This document shows, in pieces, positions 3,031 through 35,926 of a DNA stretch of 64,000 bases. How positions within the stretch are numbered: the first letter of the stretch is position 1; each line of letters opens with the position of its first letter. The position numbers and the translations under genes are program-made. This DNA comes from Strigamia acuminata (lineage: Eukaryota): assembly GCA_949358305.1 (NCBI GenBank), contig OX442314.1, positions 16,926,001 to 16,990,000 on the forward strand, read 5' to 3'. A model generated the notes under the pieces. That model searched no databases, was not told where the DNA came from, and saw only the letters and a list, made by a program, of their open reading frames with translations.

Positions 3031-3140
3031 GACAGAAATCTGGATGGAGATGCTGCGGTAAACTTTCAACAAGCACTCCCGGCCTCAAGGTAGAACTGGT
3101 CGTGTAATCAGTGTGGTCCCGTGTGGTTCTCTGAGCATAG

Positions 3141-3506: not shown

Positions 3507-3611
3507 TCTATACTCAGAGTTTTGTGCCTATAGAAAATTAGATTTTACGGTAACATTCGTTTTTACCAATAAAATTGGTTTTTCCATATAAAAAATTCGT
3601 TTTAATCCAAT

Positions 3612-10700: not shown

Positions 10701-12016
10701 TTTAGTGTCTATACTATACTCAAATCATTTTACTTGTTTAACTAATTTGTTAAACTACTTCACTGTTAACTTATTGAGAACACCTCTGACCGCGGAGTAC
10801 GACTTTTGTCCGAGTCTCAGACATGAGCATCTGAATCTCTGTCTAAGTCTTTCCGAATTCTACCTACATTTTTCCGAATTCTACCTACATTTTTCCGAAT
10901 TCTACCTACATTTTTCCGAATTCTACCTACATTTTTCCGAATTTTAGCTACATCTTTCCGAATTTTACCTACATCTTTCTGAATTTTTCCGAATTCTGCC
11001 TAAATCTTGCCAAATCTCTATTCAAATCTTTGCAAGTTTCTATCTGAATCTTTCAAAATGCCGCTAGAATCTGTCTGAATCCTGCCTGACTCCATACGAA
11101 TCCTTCCAAATTTGTGAGAATCTTTCAAAACCCAAAACCGAATTGAAAAAAAAGATTCGAATCTCTTGACATGCAGATTCTGATTGTCGTACCCCCCGCC
11201 TCTGATTCTCATATAAATCCTACGAATATTCAAAAAAAATAACAGGATGCAGTATAACAGAGAATAACATCGGGTACCCGTACCCGTACCCGTAACCGTA
11301 CCCGCCCGTACCCGTAGGGTACGGGCGGGTACGGTTATAGATCTCCCGCGACTCCCGGTTACGGGTCGGGTACGGGTACGTTTTTTGTTCGTTTTTTGTA
11401 CGTTTTTTGTCCTGCTGGCCACGTAATCGCGGGTACGGGTAGGGTAGGGTAGGGGGATTCCGGGATAGCCCGGGTACGGGCGGGTACGGGTACGAAATTG
11501 TTTCGGTGACGGGTAACGGGCGGGTAACGGGTAAACTTTTTTCGCCAATGTTATTCTCTGCAGTATAACTATGACTCAATTCCTTACCTCGGTCGTCAGA
11601 GTTTCGGTATCAGTATCTTTGCCAAGTTCGTGAGTAGGCCTCCATACATTGTCAGGCTTATCCAACAGCACATCGAGATTGGAAAATGATGTTTGAATAT
11701 TATTTTTCTTGATTAGATCGGCTATAAGTTCCTCTAACATTTTTTTGTGGCCTGGTTTAAACTTGAATTCTTCACAAAAATTGTAAAATATTCCATAGGC
11801 TTTGATACTTTTACGTGGTTCAACTTGCTTAATAATCTTTGCATGTTCAATTAAAAACACTTCAATTTCATTGACATCTGTTAATGAACTTAAACTATGT
11901 TCATTATCGTATCCAGTAATTTCTAAGCAAAAACGAACTTCTTCCGGCAGAAGTAATAATGTTTCCTTAAAACCCGAGTTGACAACGGCACCTTGATCTT
12001 GGTCTTCGTTGTCCAT
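4762..12016 (-). CDS. Chimeric, circularly permuted eIF4G gene A: novel N-term - eIF4E-binding motif - partial MIF4G - MA3 - MA3 - W2 - eIF4G N-terminal Q-rich region - PABP-binding motif (predicted)
   Basis: ATG at 12016. YDRSFLL at 10237-10257. In-frame fused exons at about 9910, 9205, 8005, 5915 and 5750. W2 reads through in ORF 5672-6094 ([25 protein letters not shown]...). Ends [20 protein letters not shown] at 4762. Requires skipping the MITE-disrupted exon at about 10660-11220. Confidence 0.55.
8875..8920. mobile_element. 32-bp palindromic micro-insertion with 7-bp TSD, in frame inside a coding exon
   Basis: GTCGGGA + CATAATAGTAAAAGA GG TCTTTTACTACTATG + GTCGGGA. Empty site at about 25365-25371. 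Adds 13 codons ([13 protein letters not shown]). Confidence 0.8.
10783..11206. mobile_element. hAT-like MITE with internal 21-bp minisatellite, inserted in a MIF4G exon copy
   Basis: 8-bp TSD CCTCTGAC/CCTCTGAT. Imperfect TIRs CGCGGAGTACGAC / GTCGTACCCCCCG. Internal (TTTTCCGAATTCTACCTACAT)n. Interrupts a DLY..VRG.LNKLT exon that also carries a TAG. Confidence 0.75.
11250..11568. mobile_element. 303-bp hAT-type MITE (GGGTAC-rich, fold-back), intronic
   Basis: Perfect 13-bp TIR CAGAGAATAACAT/ATGTTATTCTCTG (11258-11560). Perfect 8-bp TSD CAGTATAA. Clean empty site in the duplicate at about 27898-27905. Confidence 0.92.
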
Positions 12017-12360
12017 GACAAAAATCTAGATGGAGATGCTGTGGTAAACTTTCAACACGCACTCCTGGTCGTGTAGTCAGCCCCGTGTGGTGTCATATGA
12101 GCACAGATTAAGGGAATTCCCCTTATCCGTGCTCGTGACCACGCAACACAATGCCAGGAACGTTTCAGCGCCATCGTGTGGCAACGTTTGTCCCAACACG
12201 GAAAAACATTGTGATTACACTGCGCATCGAGAGGGAAAATCTGAAACAAATTCGAAAAAGACTTAAAAATTGGAAATCTAGATGTATTCTGAGATTTTAG
12301 ATTTAGTATGAGTTTAAAGATTTGCTTTCAAATTTTAACTATTTGCTTTCAGACATTAAA

Positions 12361-12651
12361 ATGAGCGTCCAACCCGCGGCCCCCAGGCCGCATGCGGCTT
12401 AGAATCGCTAGGGATGCGGCATTTAATTTTTTTTTATATTCTAGTGTTTGTTTTCTTTAGACAACAAACAGCATTGAAATTAGGATTATTATACGAGGAT
12501 TCTTTGCTTACCTGTGGTGGTGTATATCAAGAAAATTATGTATGGACTTTTTTTTTTGCTCATCAGCTATCGTCGGTGTATTTTATGTGTGGCCCAAACA
12601 ATTCCTCTTCTTCCAATGTTGCCTGGGAAGCCAAGATGTTGGACATCACTG
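12361..12651. mobile_element. hAT-Charlie MITE resembling MER30 (copy 1 of 4)
   Basis: Ends GTCCAACCCGCGGCCC..GGCCGCATGCGGC and GCTCATCAGCTATCGT..GTGTATTTTATGTGTGGCCCAA..TGGGAAGCCAA.A..TTGGACA.C.CTG. Empty sites at about 4220 and 13773. Family assignment is from recalled consensus. Confidence 0.7.
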
Positions 12652-12791
12652 CTTTAAAACTTTTGCTCAATTTTGCTCCAATTTGTAAGATTTTGTGGAT
12701 TTCCAGGATTTCATGAGCTTTGATTAATTTCAAAACTAGCTACTCTAGCTACATGTATTATATTTTAGTTTAATTCACCTTGGCCGCCACA

Positions 12792-12960
12792 TACAGTGGG
12801 GGGGCAAAACTAAATTAAGAAATGTGACATGTTGAATCTCATGGCTCTATCTCGGGGAAAAAAAGGAGAAAAACCAATAATGAAATTTTAACTGAATACT
12901 TGTCTAACATTCTGCTTTGTTCTCCTAAATTTTTTTTTTAAATCTATCCGTTAGTTCTGA
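12792..12960. mobile_element. Possible one-ended Tc1-like remnant (TA-CAGTGGGGGGGCAAAACT); also at about 19742, 29116 and 36065
   Basis: TA followed by a CAGT(G)nCAAAA terminus typical of Tc1-family TIRs. No matching second TIR found. Confidence 0.35.
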
Positions 12961-13039
12961 AGAAAAAAATTATTTCGTGAAGTGACATCAAAAATTAAGA
13001 GGCAAAAGTAAGTTAACAACTCTGTTAACCATCGAGAAA

Positions 13040-13262
13040 CATAACTATTCTCACCCCGAGAAACATTTCCTTGGTTTTTTTTTATTCTCGCAACAACATC
13101 TGCAGTCTCTCTTTCAAATTCCTTCTGGCATTTATTGAGCAGTAATTTATGAAATATCACGAAAGTTATTATCTTGATTTCTCATATATACTTTTTTCTT
13201 AGCTAAACATTTGCATAATTTGGCATAAGCAACACTGAAATTAAGTTTATGTAATGCCTACC
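13040..13262 (-). pseudogene. Orphan frameshifted MIF4G exon (AL.KLNFSVAYAKLCKCL...); copies at about 19990-20202, 29365-29585 and 36315-36525
   Basis: A +1 insertion after DNNF gives a premature TAA. There are no flanking eIF4G exons. Confidence 0.8.
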
Positions 13263-14815
13263 AAGACATTAACAGAACATCAATAATAATTCTACTTGGC
13301 AAAACAAATTAAAAATTTGCCCATCTGTGAATGTGTGAGGGATTTCGTTTTTGTGCCTGCTTATAGTGTAGTCTCGCAAGTAAACGGCGATTAAAAAGTC
13401 CTTCATTTTGACTCAATCAACGAATGAGGTCCACTTATTTAGTTATTTGAACACTATTATATATTTTCGGCTTGGCTCACCTTTTAGGAAGTGGAGGCTT
13501 TGCCTGAAAGCATTGGGATGACTGGAAGAGACCCCTCGATCTATTTTTCGTCTCAGCCTTTTTGAATTTCCTTATAAAAACTCAAACTGGCAGAAACCAC
13601 TTTAAAAAAAAAAACCACACCAGCCGTAGTTTTTGTTTCTGAAGTTTTTTGTGATCGTTTTCAGCTGTTTTTGATGCCTATTCTGTTACTTACAGAAACT
13701 TTCAATGCACACCTATTGAGATAAAGTAAGCTTTCTTAGATTTTCCTTCAAATTTTAATTATCTACCGTCAGACTCTAAAATTTTGCGCAATTTTGCTGC
13801 AGTTTTCATGAATTTATATGATTTTGGGTATTACATGAGATTTCATGGGTTTCATGATTTACAAAATCCAAATTCTTGACTCCTAAGATATCCACCATTG
13901 GCTATCCTCTCAGCTTTGATTCGTGTTTTATACTTAAAATTAATCGTGCTTTCAAATAAGGCTAGTGTCTGTTAAATTTGCATAATGCAAAATTACCGTA
14001 AACTTTTTTTTTTCCAGTTTTTATTTTATTGGTTATTGAACAACAAAGGTTTTGTCATACAATGTGCATTTACCCAATATTAAACCTAAAGCCAGACGCC
14101 CCACAAACTCAGCGATGCATTATATTATGTAATTCCCCATTATCTCAATTAATATAATAATAATATATGTAAATGAAAGAATAATTTTCTAGGAAAAAAG
14201 ATTTGAGGAGCTATAATGGATAAATTTATTTCATTTGGCTGATCACCTCAAATTTCCCTATTCCTGTGTTAGATTTCACCTCGCTATTGTACTTCTGCAA
14301 TCGAAATCTTGAGAAACAAATAGAACTCATGGTTAATACTTGGTTATAATATAATTTACACAAACGTAAATATAACTGGCTACTCTAGCTGCAATATACA
14401 AAACAATTGGCAATGCTTTTTTTTTTGTTGTATTCATGACAATATACAACTCGAGACTCCATTACAACATGCCTTTTTTATCAGTCACAATTTTGTTAAA
14501 GCAGTCCAAAGGCCAATTTAAGCCATTTTTCTTACCAAAAAAACAAGAAAAAATAAATTTTAATCGACTTAAAAATCATGCAGCCATCATAAGAAACAAT
14601 AATTAAAAAACAAAAACTGTAGTGAAAAAAAAAAAGAAAAAAAAAACACTTTCGGAAGAAAAAAAATAATACATATACGATTGTACCCTAAAATCCCCCC
14701 CTCCCCCTCGTTAGTGCGGCAGCAACGACGATGGGGTGGAGCAGCCAGTCGATGTTCGGAGCATAGGCCAGTAGATTTGATGGGTTGTGATTACTTTCTA
14801 AGGGGAAGCCATGAC

Positions 14816-15968
14816 TCAGCTTTGATCCAAAGTTTTTGGATTATTTTCGTCTCTTCTGGGAACCCAATTGTTCTGTCGCAAATCTGTGACATCTTGCAAC
14901 ATGAAACGAACTCTCGGCGATGCCTGTCGCTTATTAATGATTTCCTTCATCATTCGAAAGTAAGAGTTCATCTTATCATCCTACATAAAATAAATACCGC
15001 AATTAGAACACAACTTTTTTTAAACTGTAATTTAATTTCCACTTGCCACTGGTTCTTTATTATTGCTTTGGCTCTTCTCTGGATCAATGTCTTTTCCGAT
15101 AGTTGTTAACAATATGCAAAAACATTCTAATGAATGGTCATCTTCCTGATTGAGCAATTTTTTTAGACAATCATGTATGATGCTGGCAGTGAGCATGTGC
15201 AACTTAAAAAGTTCGCCAATAAATCTACGCGAAATAAAAGAAACATTATTTTCGACGATCAACACGATAAATTATTCAACAACCTTATATTCCCTAGCGA
15301 TCTCCTTTTCGCTTTTCTTTCCAAATCCTCCAATTCTTCGTCCAATTCACGTTTCTTAGCTTCATCCTATAACAATAACATTCGTTTCGTTATTCACATT
15401 AAAAACCCCCTAAATATTCTCACATCAGGAAACATTTCCTTGGCCCTCTTGATTCTCGCAACATCATCCGCAGTGTCTCTTTCAAATTCCTTCTGGCATT
15501 TATTGAGCAGTAATTTACGAAAGTACCGGTATACAAAGTGATTATCTTGATTTCCTGTAGGGACTTTTTTCATAGCTAGACACTTGCATAAGTCAGCAAC
15601 ACTGAAATTAGGTTCATCTAATGCCTGGCAAATAATTAACACAAAATAAACAATAATTCTACTTGGCCAACAAATAATTGCTTACTTTTTCAAACACTAA
15701 GTTAGTAACACCCATTAGCCTTTCTTCAGTGTCTATACTTAAATCGTTTACTTGTTTCGATAATGTGTTAAACTTCTCCTGTGTCAACTCATTGAGAATA
15801 TCTCCGACTCTTTTATATAAATCCTAAGAATATTCAAAAAAGTTAACACAATACAGTTTCCGAATAAAACGTATTCCTTACCTCGGTCTTAAGAGCCTCG
15901 GTGTCTGTATCCTTGCCAAATTTATGAGTACGCCTCCAAGCACCTTGATCTTGGTCTTCGTTGTCCAT
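14816..15968 (-). CDS. Stand-alone MIF4G minigene C1 (6 predicted exons)
   Basis: [10 protein letters not shown] fused in frame to [19 protein letters not shown]|, then [35 protein letters not shown] and [23 protein letters not shown]. The last codons and the 3'UTR come from the parental end (AGC TGA GTCATGGCTTCCCC). Confidence 0.65.
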
Positions 15969-16046
15969 GACAGAAATCTAGATGGAGATGCTGTGGTAAA
16001 CTTTCAACCCGCACTCCTGGTCGTGTAGTCAGCCCAGTGTGGTGTC

Positions 16047-16086
16047 ATATGAGCATAGATATAGATTACTATATCTATGATATGAG
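16047..16086. mobile_element. 26-bp palindromic micro-insertion with 7-bp TSD (duplicate at 32371-32410)
   Basis: ATATGAG + CATAGATATAG ATTA CTATATCTATG + ATATGAG. Empty sites at about 12095 and 28432. Confidence 0.8.
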
Positions 16087-16433
16087 CACAGATTAAGGGA
16101 ATTCTCCTCTTCTGTGCTCGTGACCACGCAACACAATGCCAGGAACGTTTCAGCGCCATCGTGTGGCAACGTCAAGATGTAGATGCTGTGGTAAACTTTC
16201 AACGAGCACTCCGGGTAGCAGTTGTTGTGGTTTTATTTAGTTTGATTATTTTAGATCTTTGAAATGATTTAAAATGACTAATATTTAATAATAAAATGTT
16301 TTTAAAAGTCTGGAAGCAATGTTTTAAGCTGTTACTTTTTCAAAATTCATGATTCGTCAGTTCGCTCAGTTTATCGGTTGTTATGTCAAGCTTGTTTTGA
16401 AATTTATGATCGATTATTCTGTTTGGACACAAA

Positions 16434-18516
16434 ATGGCTTCCCGCAACTCGAGTGTTTGCTCTCCGGATATTTCCAAAGTTTCTTCCCGCGACTCCAGTG
16501 TTTGCAGTCCATCTCCTGATCTTCTTGACTTTCTTCCAACTCCGGCACACAGTAGGCGCACACGTCGAGGTGGTGTCCACCTCCCGAAAATCCCCGTGGC
16601 TGAATTTAAGAAATTCGAGAAAGGTCGCCCCATTAATAGACAGGCAAAGCAGATTGTATTGAATTTATTTAATCAATTTTTTCATAAGCAACCTGAAGTT
16701 GGTTGTAAAGAGTTGATTAAACTTCTGTCAAATGTAACCGGTTTGGGAATTCAAAGCATACAGAAAATAAGAAGAGAGATGAATGATAAAGGTGAGTAAA
16801 AACATTGAAGTTTAAAAATAAAAATTAACACTTTCTTTTGGTTTAGGACAATTGAAAACACCAGGGAAGAAGAGGTGCGGTGATTTTCGGAAGCGTATGA
16901 ACAAATATGATTCGTTCACACAATCCGCTATTCGTGCGAAAGTGCACGAATTTTTCCGTAGAGGTGAGGTGCCCACACTGAAAAAGGTTGTAGCCAAAAT
17001 TCAGAATGATGAGACACTTCCGAGTTTAAGCAAAGAAGCATTACGTTTATTTCTACACGACATCGGTTTCAAGTTTATGAAACATAAAAGCAATGCAGCT
17101 TTAATTGAACGCGAAGACATAGTCGCTTGGAGAAGGAAGTATTTGCGTCAGATTAGCGGTTATCGCCGAGAAGGAAGAAAAATTTATTACATGGACGAAA
17201 CATCGGTTAATGCAGGTTATTAACTGAAATTATAATTTAATTTGAAATTTGAAATTAACTAAATGCTAATTCTTATTGTAGGTGAAAATGTAAGCAAATC
17301 ACACACAAATGGTTTTCTGAGTACTGGACTGAAACATCCCACACCCAAAGGAGGTAGGCATATTGTTGCTTACATTGGAAGTGACACAGGTTTCATCAAG
17401 AATGGTTTACTTCTTTTCAAGTAATTTAAATTACATTAATCTGGAAGTATTGTGTATTTAATTATTGTAATTACTTTTAGAGCTACCGGTAAGAAATCTG
17501 ATGATACCTACCACTCAAAGATGATCTCGGTAAACTTTATGAAGTGGATGGAAACTATTTTTCCAAACTTGGAAAAAGGCAGTGTGATAGTGATGGATAA
17601 TGCATCCTATCACACTGAAGAATTGGATCCAACACCCACAACTGAATGGCTTAAAGCCGATATCCAAAAATGGTGCATTGACCATAATGCACATTTTGAG
17701 GATAATTATGTAAAGGCTGAGTTACTGGAGGTATTCTATTTTAAAATATAACAATAATTTAATATATCATCAATACTTATTTATTATACTAGGTTGTAGC
17801 TACAATAAAAAACAATTTTGTCAGCTATGTCTTTGATTCCAGAGCCCAGGATTTAGGGTTCAAAGTTTTGCGCTTGCCTCCACACCACTCTTGCCTAAAT
17901 CCAATTGAAATGGTTTGGAGACAGGTCAATAATTGAATAAACTTGCTGCATCTAAACACAAAAGAAATTGTATTATAAAAAAAATAAAATTACAGGTTAA
18001 GCACCATGTTCGCTTTAACAACACCACATTTAAATTGCCACAAGTCAAACAACTGATGCGACAAGGGACTGTAGTAGTGACGTCCCAGCAATGGGAAAGT
18101 TATTTTTCGCATGTAAAAAGGAAGGTTTGTAAATTAATAATTCATATTCGTTCTTATCTTGTCTCATATACAACATTCTATTGAAGGAACAACAAATGTG
18201 GGATCAGGAAGAATTAATCAATGATGTAATGGAGCAATTCATCATTAACGCCGGGGATGATTCATCAAGTGATGAAGATTTATCAAGTGGTGAAGATTTC
18301 TCAGACAGCCAAGATAATGATGAAGACGCTACAACAACTGCAACAAACACAACTTGTCTCAATCCTTTCCTTCTGCAACGAATAAAAACCGAAGATTTAT
18401 CAAGTGATGAAGATTTCCCAGACAACCACGATAATGATGAAGATACTACAACAATTGCAACAAACACAACTTATGTCAATTCTTTCCTTCTGCAACAAAT
18501 AAAAACCGAATTTTGA
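16434..18516 (+). CDS. Intron-containing IS630-Tc1-mariner transposase, DD82E (Sailor-type), about 568 aa, copy 1
   Basis: Exons 16434-16791, 16847-17215, 17282-17420, 17481-17730, 17793-17924, 17996-18124 and 18187-18516 join with GT-AG in frame. Catalytic motifs YMDET, VMDNASYH and LPPHHSCLNPIE, with 82 residues between the second D and the E. Confidence 0.88.
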
Positions 18517-19359
18517 AATAACAAATAAATTTGGTATTACATCGATAATCTATGACAGACAGACCGGACTTCATGTCTTAAATTCATCACTTGAGTCAGT
18601 AATCTTTCGTCTCATTCGCGGACTTCGGGCGACAAATCTCCCGTTTCTGATTAAATAAAATTAATTTTTTTTTTTACTTTTGCTGACAATTTTCGTCTGA
18701 GCGCCCGTTGTTTTCTTCGATGGCTTTGTTGCCCACATCGTTAACACTTAAAATTCAAACAGAAATAAAACTGTACATCGATTGCAGTAACCTCAAATAT
18801 ATGAAAATAAATGCAAACAAAATGAATCGGTAAATTGATTATTACAATGACTTAATTAATTCCATAATTATGGTTCAGTGATTATTTTATAAAAAAGCCT
18901 GTACTCAGATCATCCTCTAATTCGAGAACAAATGTGCATCGGCCAGTATAAAAAGCTCTTCCTTCTACTTCAACAATTACTGCCGGATATTTTCCACACT
19001 TGGTTAGGTTGTGACGATTCTACTTTTGGCTGAATAATTAGCCATTACAAGAGATAAATCGGTTTAAACAAGACATTTCTACAACTAGAAATAACCTAAC
19101 CGAGATAAGCTACGGAAGTCTGTACAACGTGAATATGTGATCAAATATAATAACTTACGATTTTCGTGTGATATAATTACATGTTTATTAACATTACAAC
19201 TGGGTTGTGGTTCTGGATAAGCATCGAGAGGGAAAATCTGGATCAAATTCGAAAGACTTACTATACAAATTGGAAATCTAGATGTATCCTAAGATTTTAG
19301 ATTTAGTAAGAGTTTAAAGATTTTCCTTCAAATTTTAATTATCTGCCTTCAGACTTAAA

Positions 19360-19603
19360 ACGGGTGTCCAACCCGCGACCCCCAGGCCGCATGCGGCTTT
19401 TAATTTTTTTTAAATATATTCTAGTGTTTGTTTTCTTTAGACAGCAAACAGCATTGAAATTAGGATTATTATACGAGTATTCTTTGCTTACCTGTGGTGG
19501 TGTATATCACGAAAATTTTGTATGGACTTTTTTTTTTTGCTCATCAGCTATCGTCAGTGTATTTTATGTGTGGCCCGGGAAGCCAAGATATTGGACATCC
19601 CTG
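19360..19603. mobile_element. MER30-like hAT MITE, copy 2 (internally shorter)
   Basis: GGGTGTCCAACCCGCGACC... ...TTGGACATCCCTG, in the same flanks as copy 1. Confidence 0.7.
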
Positions 19604-21872
19604 CTTTAAAACTTTTGCTCAATTTTGCTCCAATTTGTAAGATTTTGTGGATTTCCAGGATTTCATGAGCTTTCATTAATTTCAAACTAGCTACTCTAGC
19701 TATTATATTTTAGTTTAATTCACCTTGGCCGCCGCGAGATATACAGTGGGGGGCAAAACTAAGTTAACAAATGTGACATGTTGAATCTCATGGCTGTATC
19801 TCGGAAAAAAAGGAAAAAAAACCAATAAAATTTAAACTGAATACTTGTCTAACATTCTGCTTTGTTCTACTAAAATTTTTATGAAAATCTATCCATTAAT
19901 TCTGGAGATAAAAATTATTTTGTGAAGTGACATCAAAAATTAAGAGGCAAAAGTAAGTTAACAACTCTGTTAACCATTGAGAAACCTAACTATTCTCACC
20001 TCTGGAAACATTTCCTTGACTTTCTTTATTCTTGTAACATCATCCGCAGCGTCTCTTTCAAATTCCTTGTGGCATTTATTGAGCAGTAATTTATGAAATA
20101 TCACGAAGTTATTATCTTGATTTCTCATATATACTTTTTTCTTAGCTAAACATTTGCGTAATTTGGCATAAGCAACACTAAAATTAAGTTCATGTAATGC
20201 CTACCAAGAAATTAACAGAACATCAATAATAATTCTATTTGGCAAAACAAATTAAACATTTTACCAGCTGTGAAGTGTGAATGTGTGAGGGATTTCGTTT
20301 TTGTCCCTGCTTATAGTGTAGTCTCGTAAGTAAACGGTGATTAAAGAGTCATTTTGACTCATTCAACGAATGAGGTCCACTTATTTAGTTATTTGAACAC
20401 AATTATATATTTTTGGTTTGGCTCACCTTTTAGGAAGTGGAGGCTTTGCCTGAAAACATTGTGATGACTGGAAAAGACCCACCTCGATCTATTTTTCGTC
20501 TCAGCCTTTTCGAATTTTCTTCTGAAAACTCAAACTGGCAGAAGCCACTTAAAAAAAAACCACACCAGCCGCAGATTTTGTTTCTGAAGATTTTTGTGAT
20601 CGTTTTCAGCTGTTTTTGATGCCTATTCTGTTACTTACAGAAACTTTCAATGCACACCTATTGAGATTAAGTAAGCTTTCTTGGATTTTCCTTCAAATTT
20701 TAATTATCTATCGTCAGACTCTAAAAATTTACGCAATTTTGCTGCAGTTTTCATAAATTTAGATGATTTTGGGTATTTTATGAGATTTCATGGGTTTCAT
20801 GATTTACAAAATCAAAATTGTTGACTCCTGGGATATCCACCATTGGCTATCCTCTCAGCTTAAGCTGACACATGCAACAAGAAAAAACTTACGCGAATAA
20901 ATCGTCACCGCTTTGATTCGTGTTTTATGCTTAAAATTAATCGTGCTGTCAAATAAGGCTAGTGTCTGTTAAATTTGCATAATGCAAGATTACCGTAAAC
21001 TTTTTTTTCAGTTTTTATTTTATTGGTTATTGAACAACAAAGGTTTTGTCATACATGTGTATTTACACCATATTAAACCTAAAGCCAGACGCCCCACAAA
21101 CTCAGCGATGCAGGACTATTGACCTGGCATGCATTATATTATGTAATTCCCCATTATCTCAATTAATATAATAATAATATATGTAAATGAAAGAATAATT
21201 TTCTAGGAAAAAAGATTTGAGGAGCTATAATGGATAAATTTATTTCATTTGGCTGATCACCTCAAATTTCCCTATTCCTGTGTTAGATTTCACCTCGCTA
21301 TTGTACTTCTGCAATCGAAATCTTGAGAAACAAATAGAACTCATGGTTAATACTTGGTTATAATATAATTTACACAAACATAAATATAACTGGCTACTCT
21401 AGCTGCAATATACAAAACAATTGGCAATACTATTATTTTTTTTTGTATTCACGACAATATACAACTCGAGACTCCATTATAACATGCCTTTTTTATCAGT
21501 CACAATTTTGTTAAAGCAGTCCAAAAGCCAATTTAAGCCATTTTGCTTATCAAAAAAACAAGAAAAAATAAATTTCAATCGACTTAAAAATCATGCAGCC
21601 ATCATAAGAAACAATAATTAAAAGACAAAAACTGTAGTGAAAAAAAAAAAGAAAAATAAAACAATTTCGGAAGAAAAAAAATAATATATATACGAGGTTA
21701 GACCATCCAATGTGATTGGCTGGTCGATCCATTTGATTGCACCCTAAAATCCCCTCCCTCCCCCTCGTTAGTGCGGCAGCAACGAAGATGGGGTGGAGCA
21801 GCCAGTCGATGTTCGGAGCATAAGCCAGTAGATTTGATGGGTTGTGATTACTTTCTAAGGGGAAGCCATGAC

Positions 21873-24800
21873 TCAGCTTTGATCCAAAGTTTTTGGATTA
21901 TTTTCGTCTCTTCTGGGAACCCAATTGTTCTGTCGCAAATCTGTGACATCTTGCAACATGAAACGAACTCTCGGCGATGCCTGTCGCTTATTAATGATTT
22001 CCTTCATCATTCGAAAGTAAGAGTTCATCTTATCATCCTACATAAAATAAATACCGCAATTAGAACACAACTTTTTTTAAACTGTAATTTAATTTCCACT
22101 TGCCACTGGTTCTTTATTATTGCTTTGGCTCTTCTCTGGATCAATGTCTTTTCCGATAGTTGTTAACAATATGCAAAAACATTCTAATGAATGGTCATCT
22201 TCCTGATTGAGCAATTTTTTTAGACAATCATGTATGATGCTGGCAGTGAGCATGTGCAACTTAAAAAGTTCGCCAATAAATCTACGCGAAATAAAAGAAA
22301 CATTATTTTCGACGATCAACACGATAAATTATTCAACAACCTTATATTCCCTAGCGATCTCCTTTTCGCTTTTCTTTCCAAATCCTCCAATTCTTCGTCC
22401 AATTCACGTTTCTTAGCTTCATCCTATAACAATAACATTCGTTTCGTTATTCACATTAAAAACCCCCTAAATATTCTCACATCAGGAAACATTTCCTTGG
22501 CCCTCTTGATTCTCGCAACATCATCCGCAGTGTCTCTTTCAAATTCCTTCTGGCATTTATTGAGCAGTAATTTACGAAAGTACTGGTATACAAAGTGATT
22601 ATCTTGATTTCCTGTAGGGACTTTTTTCATAGCTAGACACTTGCATAAGTCAGCAACACTGAAATTAGGTTCATCTAATGCCTGGCAAATAATTAACACA
22701 AAATAAACAATAATTCTACTTGGCCAACAAATAATTGCTTACTTTTTCAAACACTAAGTTAGTAACACCCATTAGCCTTTCTTCAGTGTCTATACTTAAA
22801 TCGTTTACTTGTTTCGATAATGTGTTAAACTTCTCCGGTGTCAACTCATTGAGAATACCTCCGAATCTTTTATATAAATCCTAAGAATATTCAAAAAAGT
22901 TAACACAATGCATTAATAATTGTGATTAAAATAAAATAAAATATTAAAAAAAATAAAATCACCGAATCGGAATTATCGATTTTATGGCCCACTATTTCCT
23001 CAGTCAGATCTCCAGACGTAGTGGGATCTTGAATACGAATTAGTTTTTTCTCTCGTTTGGGTAATTGGGGCTGTTGAGACGGCGGCATTGACGGCACCGG
23101 ATGTCGGGGCATCATATGACTGTAGAACACTAAAAGCCAGACGACGAAATGCAAGTCAGAACCGAATTTGATCAAATGAAGATCACTCTTATTGTTACCT
23201 GGAGGATTTCCACCTCCGTAATGCGTAAATGGCGTATTCGCGGTCGAAACGTACATAGTCTGAGCTGGAGACTGGACTTGGTAAGGCTGTTGAGGAGGAT
23301 ATTGAATCCTGTACTGTAAAAGCGCAACAAACTCCTTCATTAGTTGTACGACTTGAAAAGGAACTCATCAACTCACATTAGGTGTACCACCACCCGTCAT
23401 GTGCTGCATAGTATTAATTTGCTGCGGTGGCGGTTGTTGAGTGTGAGCATAAAGCGACTGTTGTTGCTGGGTAGCAGTCGCCGGGTTTATACCCATATTT
23501 ATTCCTGGGCGTTGATTAACCGAAGAAACCTGTGGCCGAGGTGGTGGTTGACGAGAATAAAATGGCTGCAAGTTCTGCATAGTTTTGACAATTATTTCAC
23601 TTCATTTATGCAAAGGTTATATTTTAATTACCGGAGGCATGTGTGTTCCGAATACCATCGGAGTATTGGACGCACCTGGCTTCCCAGATTGGCACTGCTT
23701 ACCCATATCGTGGGTGTTAGTATTTGCGGACGTTCGCTGCTGATGTTCTGCCAAACGCATTTGTTGATTAGGATACATACTTTGGATATCCGCATCCAAT
23801 TCGTTTTCCTCAACCGATTCGTTTTCCGCTTCCTCCAGCCAACCATAAAAAGAACGGACAGAGTTCAAAGCCACGCTTTTACCCTCCTGTTCTACAGGAT
23901 CTTCACTCATCTTCCATAGTAAGAAAGTATCCTCAGAAATTATCTCTTCGTCATAAAGGAACCCGAAAAATGTGCACAATATTCCTAAATTAAATAAAAG
24001 AAATCAGTTCAAATTCTAACTTCACTTTGATCAATTATATTTCATCACCTTTCGGTTGTTCCAATTGATGCATAAGAGCTTGCAGGGCGTAAAGTGCTTG
24101 CATTTCGCACGCTTCTGAATGATCCAAGTATTTTCTTAAAATATTACAACGATTTCTCAATAGAGCTTCATCCACTTGTATCGTTGAGTCATCTGTAAAC
24201 ATGAAAAACCAAAGAGAAAATTGTTTTTATAAAATGTTCATTAATGTGCAAACAGTATGGTCTTACTACTTTTTCCTAATACACTTTGACATACAGCTAT
24301 CATTAAAGCACGAACAAATGATGCTTCGTGACATTGGCTTTCATTCAGGTGTGCCTACAGTTAAAAAAATAAAATCAACAAAAATCGACTTGTTTATTTG
24401 GTAATGTATTTCTCACGTCTATCCAATCGAAAATTTCTTCAATTTCAGTTTGCTTATTAGCAAATAGTGCAGTTAACTCGGTTTTCAGTTGCCCGGAAGA
24501 AAAATTGGTAGTTTTGCAAGGCTCTGGTGGCTTCACTGTAAACTCTAACTTCTGTCAGCATCCGACAAATATACATATATATAAAACCAGAACATGAGAC
24601 AATAAACCAATTTTACATTCTCCTTAATGAATTCTTCTGTCTTTACACTAGATAGTAAAAATTGAGACCATTGTAAATTCCACGATCTCCACAATTCACC
24701 AACTTCGTGCGTTCCCTTAATTAAAAAACAACAAATAAATCGTTTTGTTTTTAAATATCCAAGAAAAGTGGTATTACCAATTTCTTAGAAACAGCATGCA

Positions 24801-27800
24801 AAACGGCAGTCACAAAATAGCCAGCACAACCTGTTTCGTAACAGGGCTGGGCTACCTCGTGAAGACATATCAAAGGTAATGTACTATCTTCAATCAAAGG
24901 CGCAATTAATTCGCCTAAATATTCCCAAATATGAGGAATATCAATTGCATAATCTTTAACCAAACTCAGAATTGCTTGAAGGCTGCAAAAAAAAATAAGA
25001 AATAATAAGTATTGAAAAGAAAAAAAATAAATAAAGACATTGCATTAACCTTACCCTTTAATATACTGCTCAGGAGTCATAACTTTCGCCTTTATTAAAT
25101 CATGCATCAGCTGACCAACCTGTTGCCTTATTTTAGGCGAGCGCTCTAGAACGCAATTGAATGCATGAGTAACAAAAAAAGAAATTGTTGTGGAAGCAAA
25201 TATTTCTGAAACGCACAAAATAGCTTCCTAGAAGCACAAAAATTCAAATTTAGATACGTTTTAGAACCGCTAAAACAAAATAAATATCCTACTTGAAAAT
25301 CAGAAATATGTAAAAATTCATCGATTAGTGCCTTAGCTCTCCTTTCAATTTCCTTTTCAGTTAAGTCGGGATTTCCTCTCAGAACAACATCTTTTTTCTC
25401 TTCGCTGGTAGTACTACTCTCTCTACTGCTACCTCTTGCAGCATGTCTACTTTCCGTAACCAGCGGCAATTGCTTCTTTTTTTCCCTGCCATGCACAACA
25501 GCTTTGCTACGATGCTGATCAGGGGGTGCCATTTGAATACCTCGACCTTTACTTGAGTCCCGAGACGGCGAAAGAGAGTTTCTGAATTTTAAAACAATTA
25601 TTATTTTCGTAAACAAACACAAAATAATTTTTTTTACCGATTAATTCCTCTTCTTGGTTCGTTATTATTACTTTTGCTTTTCTCTGGATCAATGTTTTCT
25701 CCGATAATTGTAAGCATTGTGGACAAAACTTCGAACGATTCCTCATCTTCATAATTGAGCAATTTTTTTAGGCAGTCGCACATGATGCTGGCAGTGAGCA
25801 TGTGCAACTCAAAGAGTTCACCAATAAATCTACACGAAATAGAAAAGCATTATTTTCTAGAATTTCTTTCAACTAATCAACACAATAAATTATTCAACCT
25901 TATATTTCCTAGTGACCTCGTTTTCGCTTTTCTTTCCAAATCCTGCAATTCCTCATCCGATTCCTCAGCCAATTCATCTTTCATAGCTTTATCCTTCAAT
26001 AAAATTCGTTATTCACATGCTGCCTTAAAAACCCCATAAATATTCTCACATCGGTAAACATTTCGTTGTCTCTCTTAACTTTCGTAATATCAGCAGGACT
26101 GTCTCCTTCAAATTCCTTCTGGCATTTTTTGAGCAAGAATTCACGAAATTTTACAAAGTGATTATCTTGATTTCCTGTAGGGATTTTTTTCATTCTTAAA
26201 CGTTGGCATAAATTGGTGTAAGCGATACTGAAATTAGGTTCATCTAATGCCTGGCAAAAAAAATTAACACAATATCAACAACAATTCTACTTGGCAAAAC
26301 AAATAACTGCTTACTTTTTCAAAAACTAAGTCAATAACACCCATTAGCCTTTCTTCAATGATTGACTGGCATTTAACTTGAGCCTGATAAAATTTCACGA
26401 AAATCAAATAAACGCATAAATAACAAACTAAAAAAATACTTACATCCCTAGGTTTGGCACAAGACTTTACATATCCAGGAGTATGAGATCTTTGAAACCC
26501 AGCTAGACTAACGGGCTTTGTTTTATTAGACTTTAAAAAACAACATCAAACAGTTAAAAAAAAAGAAAAAAAAAAAAAAAAAAAAAAACTCTTATATTAC
26601 CCAATCTGTAACTGAATCCTTTATAACTTCCAGATCTGGTAAACCTTCTGGTTTTCGTAAGGACAGTGTCTGAAACTGCATTTGCAGCAAAAATGATCGA
26701 TCATATTGTCGTTTTCCTTCAGGATTTAAAGGACTCCATTGATCTAAAACCACAAAGAAATCCAGTTAAACATTCACCCCAATCTCCTAAACATCGTTTA
26801 CTAACCTTTCTTAGAAATAGTTTGACTTTTGGTAATAGGTTGATCTATTACATCAATCACTTGTTCATTCCTCTCAAAATCTTGACTAACTTTAGTATTT
26901 TCTTCAATCTTTTCACTCAATTTACGTTCTTCCTCCTTAGAATTTATGTTATCAGTGAGAGAAACCTCTTGTGCGACCGCAGGACTACCTTCAGGTAAGT
27001 TAATCTAATAAAACAAGACATTTGCTCACATTCGTCTAATGTCTGGAAAAAATTTATCACAAAATCAACAATAATTGACCTGGCTAAACGAATATCTACC
27101 GGTACATACTTTTTCAAATACTAAGTCAATATCACCTATTAGTCTTTCTTTAGTGTCTATACTATACTCAAATCATTTTACTTGTTTCACTAATTTGTTA
27201 AACTACTTCACTGTTAACTTATTGAGAACACCTCTGACCGCGGAGTACGACTTTTGTCCGAGTCTCAGACATGAGCATCTGAATCTCTGTCTAAGTCTTT
27301 CCGAATTCTACCTACATTTTTCCGAATTCTACCTACATTTTTCCGAATTCTACCTACATTTTTCCGAATTCTACCTACATTTTTCCGAATTCTACCTACA
27401 TTTTTCCGAATTCTACCTACATTTTTCCGAATTCTACCTACATTTTTCCGAATTCTACCTACATTTTTCCGAATTCTACCTACATTTTTCCGAATTCTAC
27501 CTACATTTTTCCGAATTCTACCTACATTTTTCCGAATTCTACCTACATTTTTCCGAATTCTATCTACATTTTTCCGAATTCTACCTACATTTTTCCGAAT
27601 TTTAGCTACATCTTTCCGAATTTTACCTACATCTTTCCGAATTCTGCCTAAATCTTGCCAAATCTCTATTCAAATCTTTGCAAGTCTCTATCTGAATCTT
27701 TCAAAATGCCGCTCGAATTTGTCTGAATCCTGCCTTACTCCATACGAATCCTTCCAAATTTGTGAGAATCTTTCAAAACCCAAAACCGAATTGAAAAAAA

Positions 27801-28353
27801 AGATTCGAATCTCTTGACATGCAGATTCTGATTGTCGTACCCCCCGCCTCTGATTCTCATATAAATCCTACGAATATTCAAAAAAAATAACAGGATGCAG
27901 TATAACTATGACTCAATTCCTTACCTCGGTCGTCAGAGTTTCGGTATCAGTATCTTTGCCAAGTTCGTGAGTAGGCCTCCATACATTGTCAGGCTTATCC
28001 AACAGCACATCGAGATTGGAAAATGACGTTTGAATATATTTTTTCTTGATTAGATCGGCTATAAGTTCCTCTAACATTTTTTTGTGGCCTGGTTTAAACT
28101 TGAATTCTTCACAGAAATTGTAAAATATTCCATAGGCTTTGATACTTTTACGTGGTTCAACTTGCTTAATAATCTTTGCATGTTCAATTAAAAACACTTC
28201 AATTTCATTGACATCTGTTAATGAACTTAAACTATGTTCATTATCGTATCCAGTAATTTCTAAGCAAAAACGAACTTCTTCCGGCAGAAGTAATAATGTT
28301 TCCTTAAAACCCGAGTTGACAACGGCACCTTGATCTTGGTCTTCGTTGTCCAT
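21873..28353 (-). CDS. Chimeric, circularly permuted eIF4G gene B: novel N-term - 4E-binding motif - partial MIF4G - MA3 - W2 - N-terminal region/PABP motif - complete second MIF4G (predicted)
   Basis: ATG at 28353. YDRSFLL at 26685-26705. W2 read-through in ORF 23617-23979 ([27 protein letters not shown]). [18 protein letters not shown] motif. The phase-0 donor DNSDS|GT joins the phase-0 DLYKRF exon at 22881. Ends KTLDQS* at 21873. Requires skipping the MITE-disrupted exon at about 27110-27868. Confidence 0.55.
27231..27854. mobile_element. hAT-like MITE (duplicate of 10783-11206) with expanded 21-bp minisatellite
   Basis: Same TSD and TIRs. About 14 near-perfect repeat units here versus about 4 in the other copy. 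Confidence 0.75.
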
Positions 28354-28682
28354 GACAGAAATCTAAATGGAGATGCTGTGGTAAACTTTCAACCCGCACT
28401 CCTGGTCGTGTAGTCAGCCCCGTGTGGTGTCATATGAGCACAGATTAAGGGAATTCCCCTTATCCGTGCTCGTGACCACGCAACACAATGCCAGGAACGT
28501 TTCAGCGCCATCGTGTGGCAACGTTTGTCCCAACACGGAAAAACATTGTGATTAAATCTGAAACAAATTCGAAAAAGACTTACTGTATAAATTGGAAATC
28601 TAGATGTATACTGAGATTTTAGATTTAGTATGAGTTTAAAGATTTGGCTTCAACTTTTAACTATTTGCTTTCAGACATTAAA

Positions 28683-28975
28683 ATGAGTGTCCAACCCGCG
28701 GCCCCCAGGCCGCATGCGGCTTAGAATCGCTATAGGGCTGCGGCATTTAATTTTTTTTTATATTCTAGTGTTTGTTTTCTTTAGACAACAAACAGCATTG
28801 AAATTAGGATTATTATACGAGGATTCTTTGCTTACCTGTGGTGGTGTATATCAAGAAAATTATGTATGGACTTTTTTTTTTGCTCATCAGCTATCGTCGG
28901 TGTATTTTATGTGTGGCCCAAACAATTCCTCTTCTTCCAATGTTGCCTGGGAAGCCAAGATGTTGGACATCACTG
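28683..28975. mobile_element. MER30-like hAT MITE, copy 3
   Basis: Near-identical to 12361-12651. Confidence 0.7.
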
Positions 28976-31139
28976 CTTTAAAACTTTTGCTCAATTTTGC
29001 TCCAATTTGTAAGATTTTGTGGATTTCCAGGATTTCATGAGCTTTGATTAATTTCAAAACTAGCTACTCTAGCTACATGTATTATATTTTAGTTTAATTC
29101 ACCTTGGCCGCCACATACAGTGGGGGGGCAAAACTAAATTAAGAAATGTGACATGTTGAATCTCATGGCTCTATCTCGGGGAAAAAAAGGAGAAAAACCA
29201 ATAATGAAATTTTAACTGAATACTTGTCTAACATTCTGCTTTGTTCTCCTAAATTTTTTTTTTAAATCTATCCGTTAGTTCTGAAGAAAAAAATTATTTC
29301 GTGAAGTGACATCAAAAATTAAGAGGCAAAAGTAAGTTAACAACTCTGTTAACCATCGAGAAACATAACTATTCTCACCCCGAGAAACATTTCCTTGGTT
29401 TTTTTTTATTCTCGCAACAACATCTGCAGTCTCTCTTTCAAATTCCTTCTGGCATTTATTGAGCAGTAATTTATGAAATATCACGAAAGTTATTATCTTG
29501 ATTTCTCATATATACTTTTTTCTTAGCTAAACATTTGCATAATTTGGCATAAGCAACACTGAAATTAAGTTTATGTAATGCCTACCAAGACATTAACAGA
29601 ACATCAATAATAATTCTACTTGGCAAAACAAATTAAAAGTTTGCCCATCTGTGAATGTGTGAGGGATTTCGTTTTTGTGCCTGCTTATAGTGTAGTCTCG
29701 CAAGTAAACGGCGATTAAAAAGTCCTTCATTTTGACTCAATCAACGAATGAGGTCCACTTATTTAGTTATTTGAACACTATTATATATTTTCGGCTTGGC
29801 TCACCTTTTAGGAAGTGGAGGCTTTGCCTGAAAGCATTGGGATGACTGGAAGAGACCCCTCGATCTATTTTTCGTCTCAGCCTTTTTGAATTTCCTTATA
29901 AAAACTCAAACTGGCAGAAACCACTTTAAAAAAAAAAACCACACCAGCCGTAGTTTTTGTTTCTGAAGTTTTTTGTGATCGTTTTCAGCTGTTTTTGATG
30001 CCTATTCTGTTACTTACAGAAACTTTCAATGCACACCTATTGAGATAAAGTAAGCTTTCTTAGATTTTCCTTCAAATTTTAATTATCTACCGTCAGACTC
30101 TAAAATTTTGCGCAATTTTGCTGCAGTTTTCATGAATTTATATGATTTTAGGTATTACATGAGATTTCATGGGTTTCATGATTTACAAAATCCAAATTCT
30201 TGACTCCTAAGATATCCACCATTGGCTATCCTCTCAGCTTTGATTCGTGTTTTATACTTAAAATTAATCGTGCTTTCAAATAAGGCTAGTGTCTGTTAAA
30301 TTTGCATAATGCAAAATTACCGTAAACTTTTTTTTTTCCAGTTTTTATTTTATTGGTTATTGAACAACAAAGGTTTTGTCATACAATGTGCATTTACCCA
30401 ATATTAAACCTAAAGCCAGACGCCCCACAAACTCAGCGATGCATTATATTATGTAATTCCCCATTATCTCAATTAATATAATAATAATATATGTAAATGA
30501 AAGAATAATTTTCTAGGAAAAAAGATTTGAGGAGCTATAATGGATAAATTTATTTCATTTGGCTGATCACCTCAAATTTCCCTATTCCTGTGTTAGATTT
30601 CACCTCGCTATTGTACTTCTGCAATCGAAATCTTGAGAAACAAATAGAACTCATGGTTAATACTTGGTTATAATATAATTTACACAAACGTAAATATAAC
30701 TGGCTACTCTAGCTGCAATATACAAAACAATTGGCAATGCTTTTTTTTTTGTTGTATTCATGACAATATACAACTCGAGACTCCATTACAACATGCCTTT
30801 TTTATCAGTCACAATTTTGTTAAAGCAGTCCAAAGGCCAATTTAAGCCATTTTTCTTACCAAAAAAACAAGAAAAAATAAATTTTAATCGACTTAAAAAT
30901 CATGCAGCCATCATAAGAAACAATAATTAAAAAACAAAAACTGTAGTGAAAAAAAAAAAGAAAAAAAAAACACTTTCGGAAGAAAAAAAATAATACATAT
31001 ACGATTGTACCCTAAAATCCCCCCCTCCCCCTCGTTAGTGCGGCAGCAACGACGATGGGGTGGAGCAGCCAGTCGATGTTCGGAGCATAGGCCAGTAGAT
31101 TTGATGGGTTGTGATTACTTTCTAAGGGGAAGCCATGAC

Positions 31140-32292
31140 TCAGCTTTGATCCAAAGTTTTTGGATTATTTTCGTCTCTTCTGGGAACCCAATTGTTCTGT
31201 CGCAAATCTGTGACATCTTGCAACATGAAACGAACTCTCGGCGATGCTTGTCGCTTATTAATGATTTCCTTCATCATTCGAAAGTAAGAGTTCATCTTAT
31301 CATCCTACATAAAATAAATACCGCAATTAGAACACAACTTTTTTTAAACTGTAATTTAATTTCCACTTGCCACTGGTTCTTTATTATTGCTTTGGCTCTT
31401 CTCTGGATCAATGTCTTTTCCGATAGTTGTTAACAATATGCAAAAACATTCTAATGAATGGTCATCTTCCTGATTGAGCAATTTTTTTAGACAATCATGT
31501 ATGATGCTGGCAGTGAGCATGTGCAACTTAAAAAGTTCGCCAATAAATCTACGCGAAATAAAAGAAACATTATTTTCGACGATCAACACGATAAATTATT
31601 CAACAACCTTATATTCCCTAGCGATCTCCTTTTCGCTTTTCTTTCCAAATCCTCCAATTCTTCGTCCAATTCACGTTTCTTAGCTTCATCCTATAACAAT
31701 AACATTCGTTTCGTTATTCACATTAAAAACCCCCTAAATATTCTCACATCAGGAAACATTTCCTTGGCCCTCTTGATTCTCGCAACATCATCCGCAGTGT
31801 CTCTTTCAAATTCCTTCTGGCATTTATTGAGCAGTAATTTACGAAAGTACCGGTATACAAAGTGATTATCTTGATTTCCTGTAGGGACTTTTTTCATAGC
31901 TAGACACTTGCATAAGTCAGCAACACTGAAATTAGGTTCATCTAATGCCTGGCAAATAATTAACACAAAATAAACAATAATTCTACTTGGCCAACAAATA
32001 ATTGCTTACTTTTTCAAACACTAAGTTAGTAACACCCATTAGCCTTTCTTCAGTGTCTATACTTAAATCGTTTACTTGTTTCGATAATGTGTTAAACTTC
32101 TCCTGTGTCAACTCATTGAGAATATCTCCGACTCTTTTATATAAATCCTAAGAATATTCAAAAAAGTTAACACAATACAGTTTCCGAATAAAACGTATTC
32201 CTTACCTCGGTCTTAAGAGCCTCGGTGTCTGTATCCTTGCCAAATTTATGAGTACGCCTCCAAGCACCTTGATCTTGGTCTTCGTTGTCCAT
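31140..32292 (-). CDS. Stand-alone MIF4G minigene C2 (duplicate of C1, offset 16324)
   Basis: Same exons and splice sites as 14816-15968; the ORF-track translations are identical. Confidence 0.65.
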
Positions 32293-32757
32293 GACAGAAA
32301 TCTAGATGGAGATGCTGTGGTAAACTTTCAACCCGCACTCCTGGTCGTGTAGTCAGCCCCGTGTGGTGTCATATGAGCATAGATATAGATTACTATATCT
32401 ATGATATGAGCACAGATTAAGGGAATTCTCCTCTTCTGTGCTCGTGACCACGCAACACAATGCCAGGAACGTTTCAGCGCCATCGTGTGGCAACGTCAAG
32501 ATGTAGATGCTGTGGTAAACTTTCAACGAGCACTCCGGGTAGCAGTTGTTGTGGTTTTATTTAGTTTGATTATTTTAGATCTTTGAAATGATTTAAAATG
32601 ACTAATATTTAATAATAAAATGTTTTTAAAAGTCTGGAAGCAATGTTTTAAGCTGTTACTTTTTCAAAATTCATGATTCGTCAGTTCGCTCAGTTTATCG
32701 GTTGTTATGTCAAGCTTGTTTTGAAATTTATGATCGATTATTCTGTTTGGACACAAA

Positions 32758-35683: not shown

Positions 35684-35926
35684 ACGGGTGTCCAACCCGC
35701 GACCCCCAGGCCGCATGCGGCTTTTAATTTTTTTTAAATATATTCTAGTGTTTGTTTTCTTTAGACAGCAAACAGCATTGAAATTAGGATTATTATACGA
35801 GTATTCTTTGCTTACCTGTGGTGGTGTATATCACGAAAATTTTGTATGGACTTTTTTTTTTGCTCATCAGCTATCGTCAGTGTATTTTATGTGTGGCCCG
35901 GGAAGCCAAGATATTGGACATCCCTG
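35684..35926. mobile_element. MER30-like hAT MITE, copy 4
   Basis: Near-identical to 19360-19603. Confidence 0.7.

What the first reader, a model, noticed from the sequence alone, without database searches (positions are those of the whole stretch)
16434..18516. Intact six-intron DD82E (Sailor-type) transposase without recognisable TIRs
Seen: seven exons splice to about 568 aa with all three catalytic residues and D-82-E spacing. The introns are host-sized. The 3-kb segment (about 16173-19220) replaces a 36-bp stretch present at 12188-12223, and I found no TIR pair or TA duplication. Established: DD82E defines the Sailor group of ITm elements, and ITm transposases usually have few introns. 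Inference: either a domesticated transposase or an unusually intron-rich element that may have contributed to the rearrangements.
Basis: partly seen in the sequence, partly recalled or inferred. Interest (0 to 1): 0.72.

Follow-up and report, generated by a model that had tools for sequence, protein, structure and literature searches.

The report
Six-intron Sailor transposase, likely tamed
A jumping-gene enzyme gene of the Sailor type, predicted to be spliced from seven exons, sits here in two tandem copies without its terminal repeats; it keeps its DNA-binding half but has lost many normally fixed residues of its cutting domain, so it is likely being kept as a DNA-binding protein rather than as a working transposase.

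Summary
Observation confirmed: seven exons, six GT-AG introns of 55-71 nt, 568 aa, D236/D328/E411 with 82 residues between D and E; no TIR or TSD; the 3,048-bp segment replaces 36 bp.

(1) A second intact copy lies 16,324 bp away in a 99.4% tandem duplication. (2) 'Intact' is nominal: 0 of 19 conserved N-terminal columns are lost but 16 of 67 catalytic and C-terminal ones (W239S, Y403H, C405S), the profile of Sailor derivatives that lost the DDE triad. (3) DNA contigs show diverged paralogs whose indels fall in the predicted introns (6 of 7; the seventh is in frame), which supports the splicing model and selection on the frame. (4) Both ends match a very abundant repeat and are cut off at the junctions, so the TIRs were likely lost when the piece was patched in.

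Best reading (0.5): an immobilised Sailor-derived gene kept for a non-cutting role. Rival (0.3): a truncated copy of a still-mobile, intron-rich Sailor subfamily. Nothing shows that it caused the rearrangements. No whole genome, ortholog or transcript could be examined.

The parts
16434..18516 (+). Sailor-derived DD82E transposase gene, 7 exons, 568 aa (predicted splicing)
16434..16791 (+). Exon 1: about 55-aa Ser/Pro-rich extension built partly from a 45-bp tandem repeat, then the first helical DNA-binding module
   Evidence: (D6)
16847..17215 (+). Exon 2: second DNA-binding module, linker and first catalytic Asp (D236 at 17194); DETW has become DETS (S239 at 17203)
17282..17420 (+). Exon 3: shortened loop after D236 (24 aa against 35 in 113 of 125 scored homologs), WxD motif lost, H273Y
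17481..17730 (+). Exon 4: DYH changed to TYH, second catalytic Asp (D328 at 17596)
17793..17924 (+). Exon 5: PPYHC changed to PPHHS, catalytic Glu (E411 at 17907)
17996..18124 (+). Exon 6: C-terminal helices
18187..18516 (+). Exon 7: acidic tail lengthened by a 117-bp in-frame tandem duplication (18274-18507, 91%)
   Evidence: D1
16173..19220 (.). Inserted 3,048-bp segment, no TIR, no target duplication
16172..16216 (+). 45-bp filler, 89% like host sequence at 15977-16021; likely a repair-templated insert
   Evidence: (D3)
16222..16459 (.). Left end: matches a very abundant repeat, includes the start codon; other copies continue differently on both sides
   Evidence: tables 2, 3, 7
19009..19221 (.). 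Right end: matches a very abundant repeat, cut off at the junction; other copies continue past it
   Evidence: tables 2, 7, 8
12188..12223 (.). 36 bp at the equivalent site of a paralogous unit that lacks the segment
32758..34840 (+). Second intact copy of the gene (N471D, S500C)
11559..38201 (.). Tandem duplication 11559-21878 / 27896-38201, 99.4% identical, within an array of partial eIF4G-like paralogs on the minus strand

Best explanation
This is a Sailor-derived transposase gene, predicted to be spliced from seven exons and present in two tandem copies, that keeps its DNA-binding half and its D-D-E triad but has lost its terminal repeats and many otherwise fixed catalytic-domain residues, so it is likely immobile and kept by selection for binding DNA rather than cutting it. 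Steps: (1, inferred) an intronless Sailor element entered this lineage and gained six host-type introns; (2, shown in contigs) it left a few diverged paralogs with the same introns; (3, inferred) abundant non-autonomous relatives share its ends, including its start codon; (4, junctions shown, mechanism inferred) an end-truncated piece was patched into the upstream region of one eIF4G-like paralog by break repair, deleting 36 bp and adding a 45-bp locally templated filler; (5, shown) a later 16.3-kb tandem duplication copied it; (6, inferred) the protein would still bind element ends or related sites and would act as a repressor of its family or as a co-opted DNA-binding factor.
For: Asymmetric loss: 0 of 19 conserved columns before D236, 16 of 67 after (Fisher p 0.018), while the 120 homologs lose 6.4% and 3.3%. 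In a wider set the protein loses 0 of 18 and 15 of 59; the 129 proteins with D-D-E (itself included) lose a median of 1 and 1, whereas 17 of 19 proteins without the triad lose 11 or more of the C-terminal set; 1 of 128 others has a larger C-minus-N excess. W at D+3 is present in 177 of 186 scored proteins and S in none; in Mos1 the residue three after catalytic D156, W159, is needed for excision and strand transfer (PMC5481204, passages; the equivalence is by position only). Both other proteins with His in the PPYHC Tyr position have Gly for the first Asp. The frame is under selection: between this gene and a paralog about 17% diverged (138 other letters in 836), 6 of 7 indels lie in predicted introns, which are 27% of the aligned length (p 0.002), and the seventh is 6 bp. 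Neutral decay of this many conserved sites would give about six stop codons (my arithmetic from the 4.4% stop fraction); there are none. No TIR or TSD.
Against: All three catalytic residues and their immediate motifs are kept (though at a 24% loss rate three sites survive by chance about 44% of the time). Nine of 128 other D-D-E proteins lose as many C-terminal columns, so a divergent but active subfamily is possible; Tc1-like enzymes have Lys at the W159 position. The gene is multi-copy, sits in only some paralogous units, and both ends match an abundant repeat, as a transposon's would. No ortholog was found: best exon-2 identity 54% among the 150 best of 1,112 hits, no supported sister in the tree. 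The 14 listed paralog differences in coding sequence are 10 non-synonymous to 4 synonymous, compatible with neutrality (p 0.36) and only excluding strong constraint; they are a biased 14 of about 345. One contig in one run shows a 1-bp deletion in exon 2 of some paralog. DNA binding and repression were not tested.
Confidence: 0.5

Rival explanations
1. A truncated copy of a still-mobile, intron-rich Sailor subfamily whose transposase is divergent but active; full copies with ends lie elsewhere and mobilise the abundant non-autonomous relatives, and selection on the frame acts at the level of the element.
For: D-D-E kept; both ends match an abundant repeat and the left one includes the start codon; present in some paralogous units and absent from others; introns do not prevent mobility: L019 has an intron and terminal inverted repeats, TLEWI elements kept moving after gaining introns (10.1101/656579, passages).
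Against: Loss of W239, WxD, H273, D298, Y403 and C405; gene-body paralogs are few and about 17% diverged, not near-identical; the window's end sequences differ from the abundant repeat at many sites where nearly all laid depth shows another letter, so this copy is not the recent master.
Confidence: 0.3
2. The gene is a passenger: a non-autonomous element of another kind captured it and carried it here, so the repeat ends say nothing about Sailor transposition.
For: Both ends are abundant while the gene is rare; the 55-aa N-terminal extension has no counterpart in most homologs; the junctions have no Sailor signature.
Against: The only Met before residue 116 lies inside the left repeat, so the repeat supplies the gene's own start, simplest if it derives from the element's own end; the letters that follow the left repeat in other copies weakly resemble the start of the right repeat (33 of 1000 shuffles, one of 30 comparisons), as in an internal-deletion derivative.
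Confidence: 0.12
3. An ordinary relic now decaying neutrally, not yet hit by a stop codon.
For: Ends lost; N:S of 10:4 among listed paralog differences; low-complexity tandem expansions at both ends of the protein.
Against: Open 568-codon frame and six intact splice pairs despite 16 conserved residues lost, all after D236; indels confined to introns.
Confidence: 0.08

Closest known systems
Sailor (DD82E) superfamily of IS630-Tc1-mariner transposons (Shi et al. 2021, PMC8533490; read parts 1-3 of 6 of the text, passages, supplement parts 1, 255, 256 of 355)
   Same: DD82E spacing, IYYMDET and VIVMDNA motifs, length within 323-676 aa, low copy number, invertebrate-type host
   Different: No TIR, no TATA duplication, six introns (the paper's main text mentions introns only in a reference title), DETW, WxD, DYH and PPYHC motifs altered
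TLEWI, Tc1-like elements with introns in bivalves (bioRxiv 10.1101/656579; passages and abstract)
   Same: ITm transposase gene with several GT-AG introns, low copy number, no TIR, ambiguous between mobile and domesticated
   Different: TLEWI are DD36E Tc1-like with 2-5 introns; this is DD82E with six, and its ends match an abundant repeat
Stationary P-element neogenes of Drosophila guanche and relatives (Miller et al. 1992 as cited in PMC8616336, passage and reference title seen; repressor-like role recalled, not checked)
   Same: Tandemly repeated, immobile transposase derivatives proposed as co-opted genes
   Different: Different superfamily; here the catalytic triad is retained and the tandem arrangement comes from a host segmental duplication
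Sailor-derived proteins with Gly at the first Asp in planthoppers and a beetle (P0233, P0245, P0188)
   Same: Intact DNA-binding half, eroded catalytic domain, PPHH in two of them
   Different: They have lost the triad; they do not group with the window protein (tree distance 2.4-2.5 against 1.6 for its nearest), so the erosion is independent

Membership tests
Sailor (DD82E) transposon | D-to-E spacing DD78-111E, mostly 82 | tested here: met
   82 residues between D328 and E411
Sailor (DD82E) transposon | Motifs I/VVYLDET and VIIMDNA around the two Asp | tested here: met
   IYYMDET and VIVMDNA
Sailor (DD82E) transposon | HCELNPIEL around the Glu | tested here: inconclusive
   HSCLNPIEM: LNPIE kept, YHC changed to HHS; 125 of 134 scored homologs have YHC
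Sailor (DD82E) transposon | N-terminal DNA-binding domain | tested here: met
   Aligns from residue 56; 0 of 19 conserved columns lost; the homolog P0021 folds like Mos1 (E 2.7e-10)
Sailor (DD82E) transposon | Falls in the Sailor clade against other ITm groups | tested here: inconclusive
   Tree of 148 Sailor-type proteins without outgroup or the paper's reference set; long branch, no supported sister
Sailor (DD82E) transposon | Terminal inverted repeats | tested here: not met
   None pairing the two ends at this locus; ends are cut off. Filed as a Sailor-derived gene, not as a Sailor transposon
Sailor (DD82E) transposon | 4-bp TATA-type target duplication | tested here: not met
   36-bp deletion and filler instead
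Sailor (DD82E) transposon | Transposition activity | not testable with these tools
   needs an assay
Domesticated transposase gene (criteria as given in 10.1101/656579) | Loss of TIR and TSD | tested here: met
   for this locus only
Domesticated transposase gene (criteria as given in 10.1101/656579) | Single copy | tested here: not met
   Two tandem copies and about two further diverged paralogs
Domesticated transposase gene (criteria as given in 10.1101/656579) | Orthologs in other species | tested here: inconclusive
   None above 54% on exon 2; relatives of the host may not be in the collections
Domesticated transposase gene (criteria as given in 10.1101/656579) | Intact frame under purifying selection | tested here: inconclusive
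   Frame kept and indels confined to introns (p 0.002), but the small substitution sample is 10 non-synonymous to 4 synonymous
Domesticated transposase gene (criteria as given in 10.1101/656579) | Full-length spliced transcript | not testable with these tools
   see Tried and rejected

The most novel reading that the evidence does not exclude
A Sailor transposase has been domesticated in this lineage into a small, six-intron gene family that encodes a catalytically disarmed DNA-binding repressor of its own hundreds of non-autonomous relatives, caught before the catalytic triad itself decayed; together with the independent Asp-to-Gly derivatives in planthoppers and a beetle, Sailor domestication would be recurrent in arthropods and undescribed.
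Probability: 0.25. Interest if true: 0.7.

Novelty: new variant of a known kind. Interest (0 to 1): 0.48.

Why it matters
No domesticated or intron-rich Sailor gene turned up in print (searches; main text of the Sailor paper; most of its supplement unread). If the reading holds, the locus shows an intermediate stage of transposase taming, with the triad still present but its supporting residues gone, and offers six recently gained introns in a gene with a known intronless ancestor. If the rival holds, it is an active ITm enzyme lacking residues that look invariant, which would also interest a specialist. Transposase domestication and intron gain in such genes are known phenomena in other families, so this is a new case and not a new kind of system.

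Tried and rejected
No whole genome is held for this window, so the genome-wide copy search was not possible. Sequencing-run search: two holders from one study, no RNA holder listed; this says nothing on expression. The two runs may be the sample behind the assembly, so they are not independent; their depth is not a copy number and is used only as a rough consistency check. Their contigs do not cover 18590-18979 beyond the exact copy, which is not taken as evidence. Exon-2 searches: 2 hits among 99 longer candidates, none among 5 similar-length candidates. A 26-nt motif of the abundant repeat had 0 matches in metagenome contigs, and five 11-nt motifs had none in the Sailor supplement, so the repeat's true termini stay unknown. 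Aligning the separate exons to P0021 gave a bad alignment, not used. Shuffle tests of loose-end motifs against the segment: best 22-35 of 1000 in 5 of 30 comparisons, none significant over the whole segment; treated as weak. A TACA in the 36-bp empty site could be a Sailor target but is expected by chance; rejected as evidence. Only 3 mismatches in the segment between the two copies, but the adjacent 2.2 kb has only 2, so this is not specific to the gene. A count of five 'second-shell' residues was chosen after seeing the protein and is not used as a test; one search is the unbiased version. Sequence search of solved structures reached only Sleeping Beauty's C-terminal part, so the W159 equivalence is positional. 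The window protein itself was not folded; only the homolog P0021 was. False duplication from two haplotypes was considered: sites shared by three window copies have matching depth 1080 and 248, two-copy sites about 710-850 and 156-210, single paralogs about 335 and 80, which fits a real duplication better. A literature search on selection in transposon copies gave nothing usable; some searches were seen as listings only.

Full report
Observation. The gene model stands. Seven exons between 16434 and 18516 give 568 aa; the six introns are GT-AG, 55-71 nt and AT-rich; D236, D328 and E411 are present with 82 residues between the last two. Ten roughly located host introns nearby are 50-92 nt. The protein is 40-42% identical to full-length Sailor-type proteins over residues 56-504, and five of six junctions align without a gap. 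Exons 4 and 5 hit Pfam DDE_3 below the curated cut-off, as fragments would. The homolog P0021 folds with mean pLDDT 84.7 and matches Mos1 and Sleeping Beauty structures best. Motifs agree with those given for Sailor in PMC8533490, except around the Glu.

Context. The first 46 kb of the window is an array of partial eIF4G-like paralogs on the minus strand (MIF4G, MA3 and W2 hits; self-BLAST). The stretch 11559-21878 is repeated at 27896-38201 at 99.4%, so a second intact copy of the gene lies at 32758-34840 with two changes in the acidic tail. Contig depths fit a real duplication better than a haplotype artefact, as a rough check only. The breakpoints are kilobases from the segment, so nothing ties the rearrangements to it.

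Junctions. Against the paralogous unit at 11988-12260, the 3,048-bp segment replaces 36 bp without a duplicated target. Its first 45 bp are an 89% copy of host sequence 195 bp upstream; the two units are 91% identical overall, so local templating soon after they split fits. That pattern is what break repair with a templated insert leaves (inference from general knowledge; seen as a listing only). Contigs of two DNA runs bridge the right junction. They also show that 16222-16459 and 18980-19239 carry summed depth of about 26,000-150,000 in X1 against 780-2,400 in between, with loose ends at 16222, 16459, 19009 and 19221. So both ends belong to abundant repeats whose other copies run on beyond the junctions: the termini were cut off here, which explains the missing TIR without needing a TIR-less element. 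The left repeat contains the only usable start codon, which is simplest if the repeat derives from the element's own 5' end, as MITEs share subterminal sequence with autonomous elements (PMC1562414, passages). Whether both ends are one family is only weakly supported, and the true termini could not be recovered.

Paralogs and splicing. The same contigs include about two further copies of the gene body, the longest about 17% diverged. In the three aligned pieces (836 bp, 27% intron) there are seven indels; six lie in predicted introns 3, 4 and 6 and one removes 6 bp at the start of exon 4 (p 0.002 for random placement). This is DNA-level support for those introns and for selection on the frame. 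Against it: one unaligned stretch has a net 10-nt difference that I cannot place, one contig in one run has a 1-bp deletion in exon 2, and the 14 listed coding differences are 10 non-synonymous to 4 synonymous, a small and biased sample that excludes only strong constraint.

Protein erosion. Of 86 columns conserved in at least 85% of 120 homologs the protein has lost 16, against a median of 3 and a maximum of 10 in the 110 homologs with at most two gaps at those columns (these homologs were gathered with P0001, so they are a close set). All 16 lie after D236 (0 of 19 against 16 of 67, p 0.018). In a wider set of 148 (147 kept of 268 proteins by coverage) it loses 0 of 18 and 15 of 59; D-D-E proteins lose a median of 1 and 1, 9 of 128 lose as many C-terminal columns, and 1 of 128 has a larger imbalance; the 19 proteins without the triad mostly look like the window protein. 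Identity to the others is normal over residues 120-235 (43% against 42% pairwise) and low over the catalytic domain (41-44% against 50-53%). W239S is the most telling change: 177 of 186 scored proteins and 72 of 73 scored locus matches have Trp, and Mos1 W159A nearly abolishes integration and excision, though Tc1-like enzymes manage with Lys there.

Introns elsewhere. Among 80 related loci from metagenomes (many partial, some near-duplicates, some probably from hosts without introns), 7 carry at least one GT-AG intron of exactly the gap length: five have one, L080 at least two, L075 four. L036 has its intron at the same site and phase as window intron 2; the other ten positions differ. L019 has an intron and terminal inverted repeats. 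So six is at the high end of what I saw, and introns alone do not show domestication. TLEWI elements are the published parallel; intron gain in domesticated genes is described for mammals (PMC3257199, abstract). Earlier notes of this scan mention seven- and ten-intron Sailor-like genes in other genomes; these are unchecked leads and lower the novelty of intron richness.

Relatives. No close relative was found: best exon-2 identity 54%; terminal branch 0.89 against a median of 0.30, eighth longest of 148, with no supported sister. The host was not identified.

Verdict. A Sailor-derived gene, not an intact Sailor transposon. Selection has kept the frame, the splice sites and the DNA-binding half while the catalytic domain drifted, which points to a non-cutting role (0.5); a divergent but mobile subfamily remains a serious rival (0.3). 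Function, expression and genome-wide copy structure are untested. New variant of a known kind; interest 0.48.

Noticed in passing
window 1-46000, minus strand: Array of many partial, rearranged eIF4G-like paralogs (MIF4G, MA3, W2 domains), 75-99% alike; an unusual expansion of a housekeeping translation factor.
   Followed up: partly
window 11579-12025, 2587-3084, 27913-28362 (minus): Some eIF4G-like units begin with an unrelated 150-aa exon that runs into the start of the MIF4G domain; no Pfam family above cut-off, only unnamed clusters in the Atlas. Possible chimeric genes.
   Followed up: partly
window 16057-16082 (and the copy 16,324 bp on): 26-bp palindromic insert with CAT...ATG ends and a 7-bp target duplication, absent from the paralogous unit; looks like a minimal DNA-transposon remnant.
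   Followed up: no
window 3141-3506: MITE-like element with 65-nt, 94% inverted arms whose end resembles the conserved upstream motif of the eIF4G-like units.
   Followed up: no
P0233, P0245 (planthoppers), P0188 (beetle): Full-length Sailor-derived proteins with Gly for the first catalytic Asp; the two planthopper proteins pair with support 1.0: candidate domesticated Sailor gene shared between species.
   Followed up: partly
P0075, P0119, P0140: Sailor-type proteins named from a gecko, one with Pfam PF01352 (recalled as KRAB) fused, although the Sailor paper reports absence from vertebrates.
   Followed up: no
L075 85-1273; L080 281-1284: Related Sailor-type genes with four and at least two short introns and intact catalytic motifs.
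   Followed up: partly
window 10733-11068, 27181-27726, 3576-3957: 21-bp and 19-bp minisatellites; the 21-bp array differs in length between the two duplicated blocks.
   Followed up: no
window 49500-60500, minus strand: Ordinary host genes with short introns: EMC1 (Pfam hit), an eIF5A-like gene, a cold-shock-domain-like gene and a 250-aa hydrophobic ORF at 59788-60540 (names from recalled motifs, not tested).
   Followed up: no
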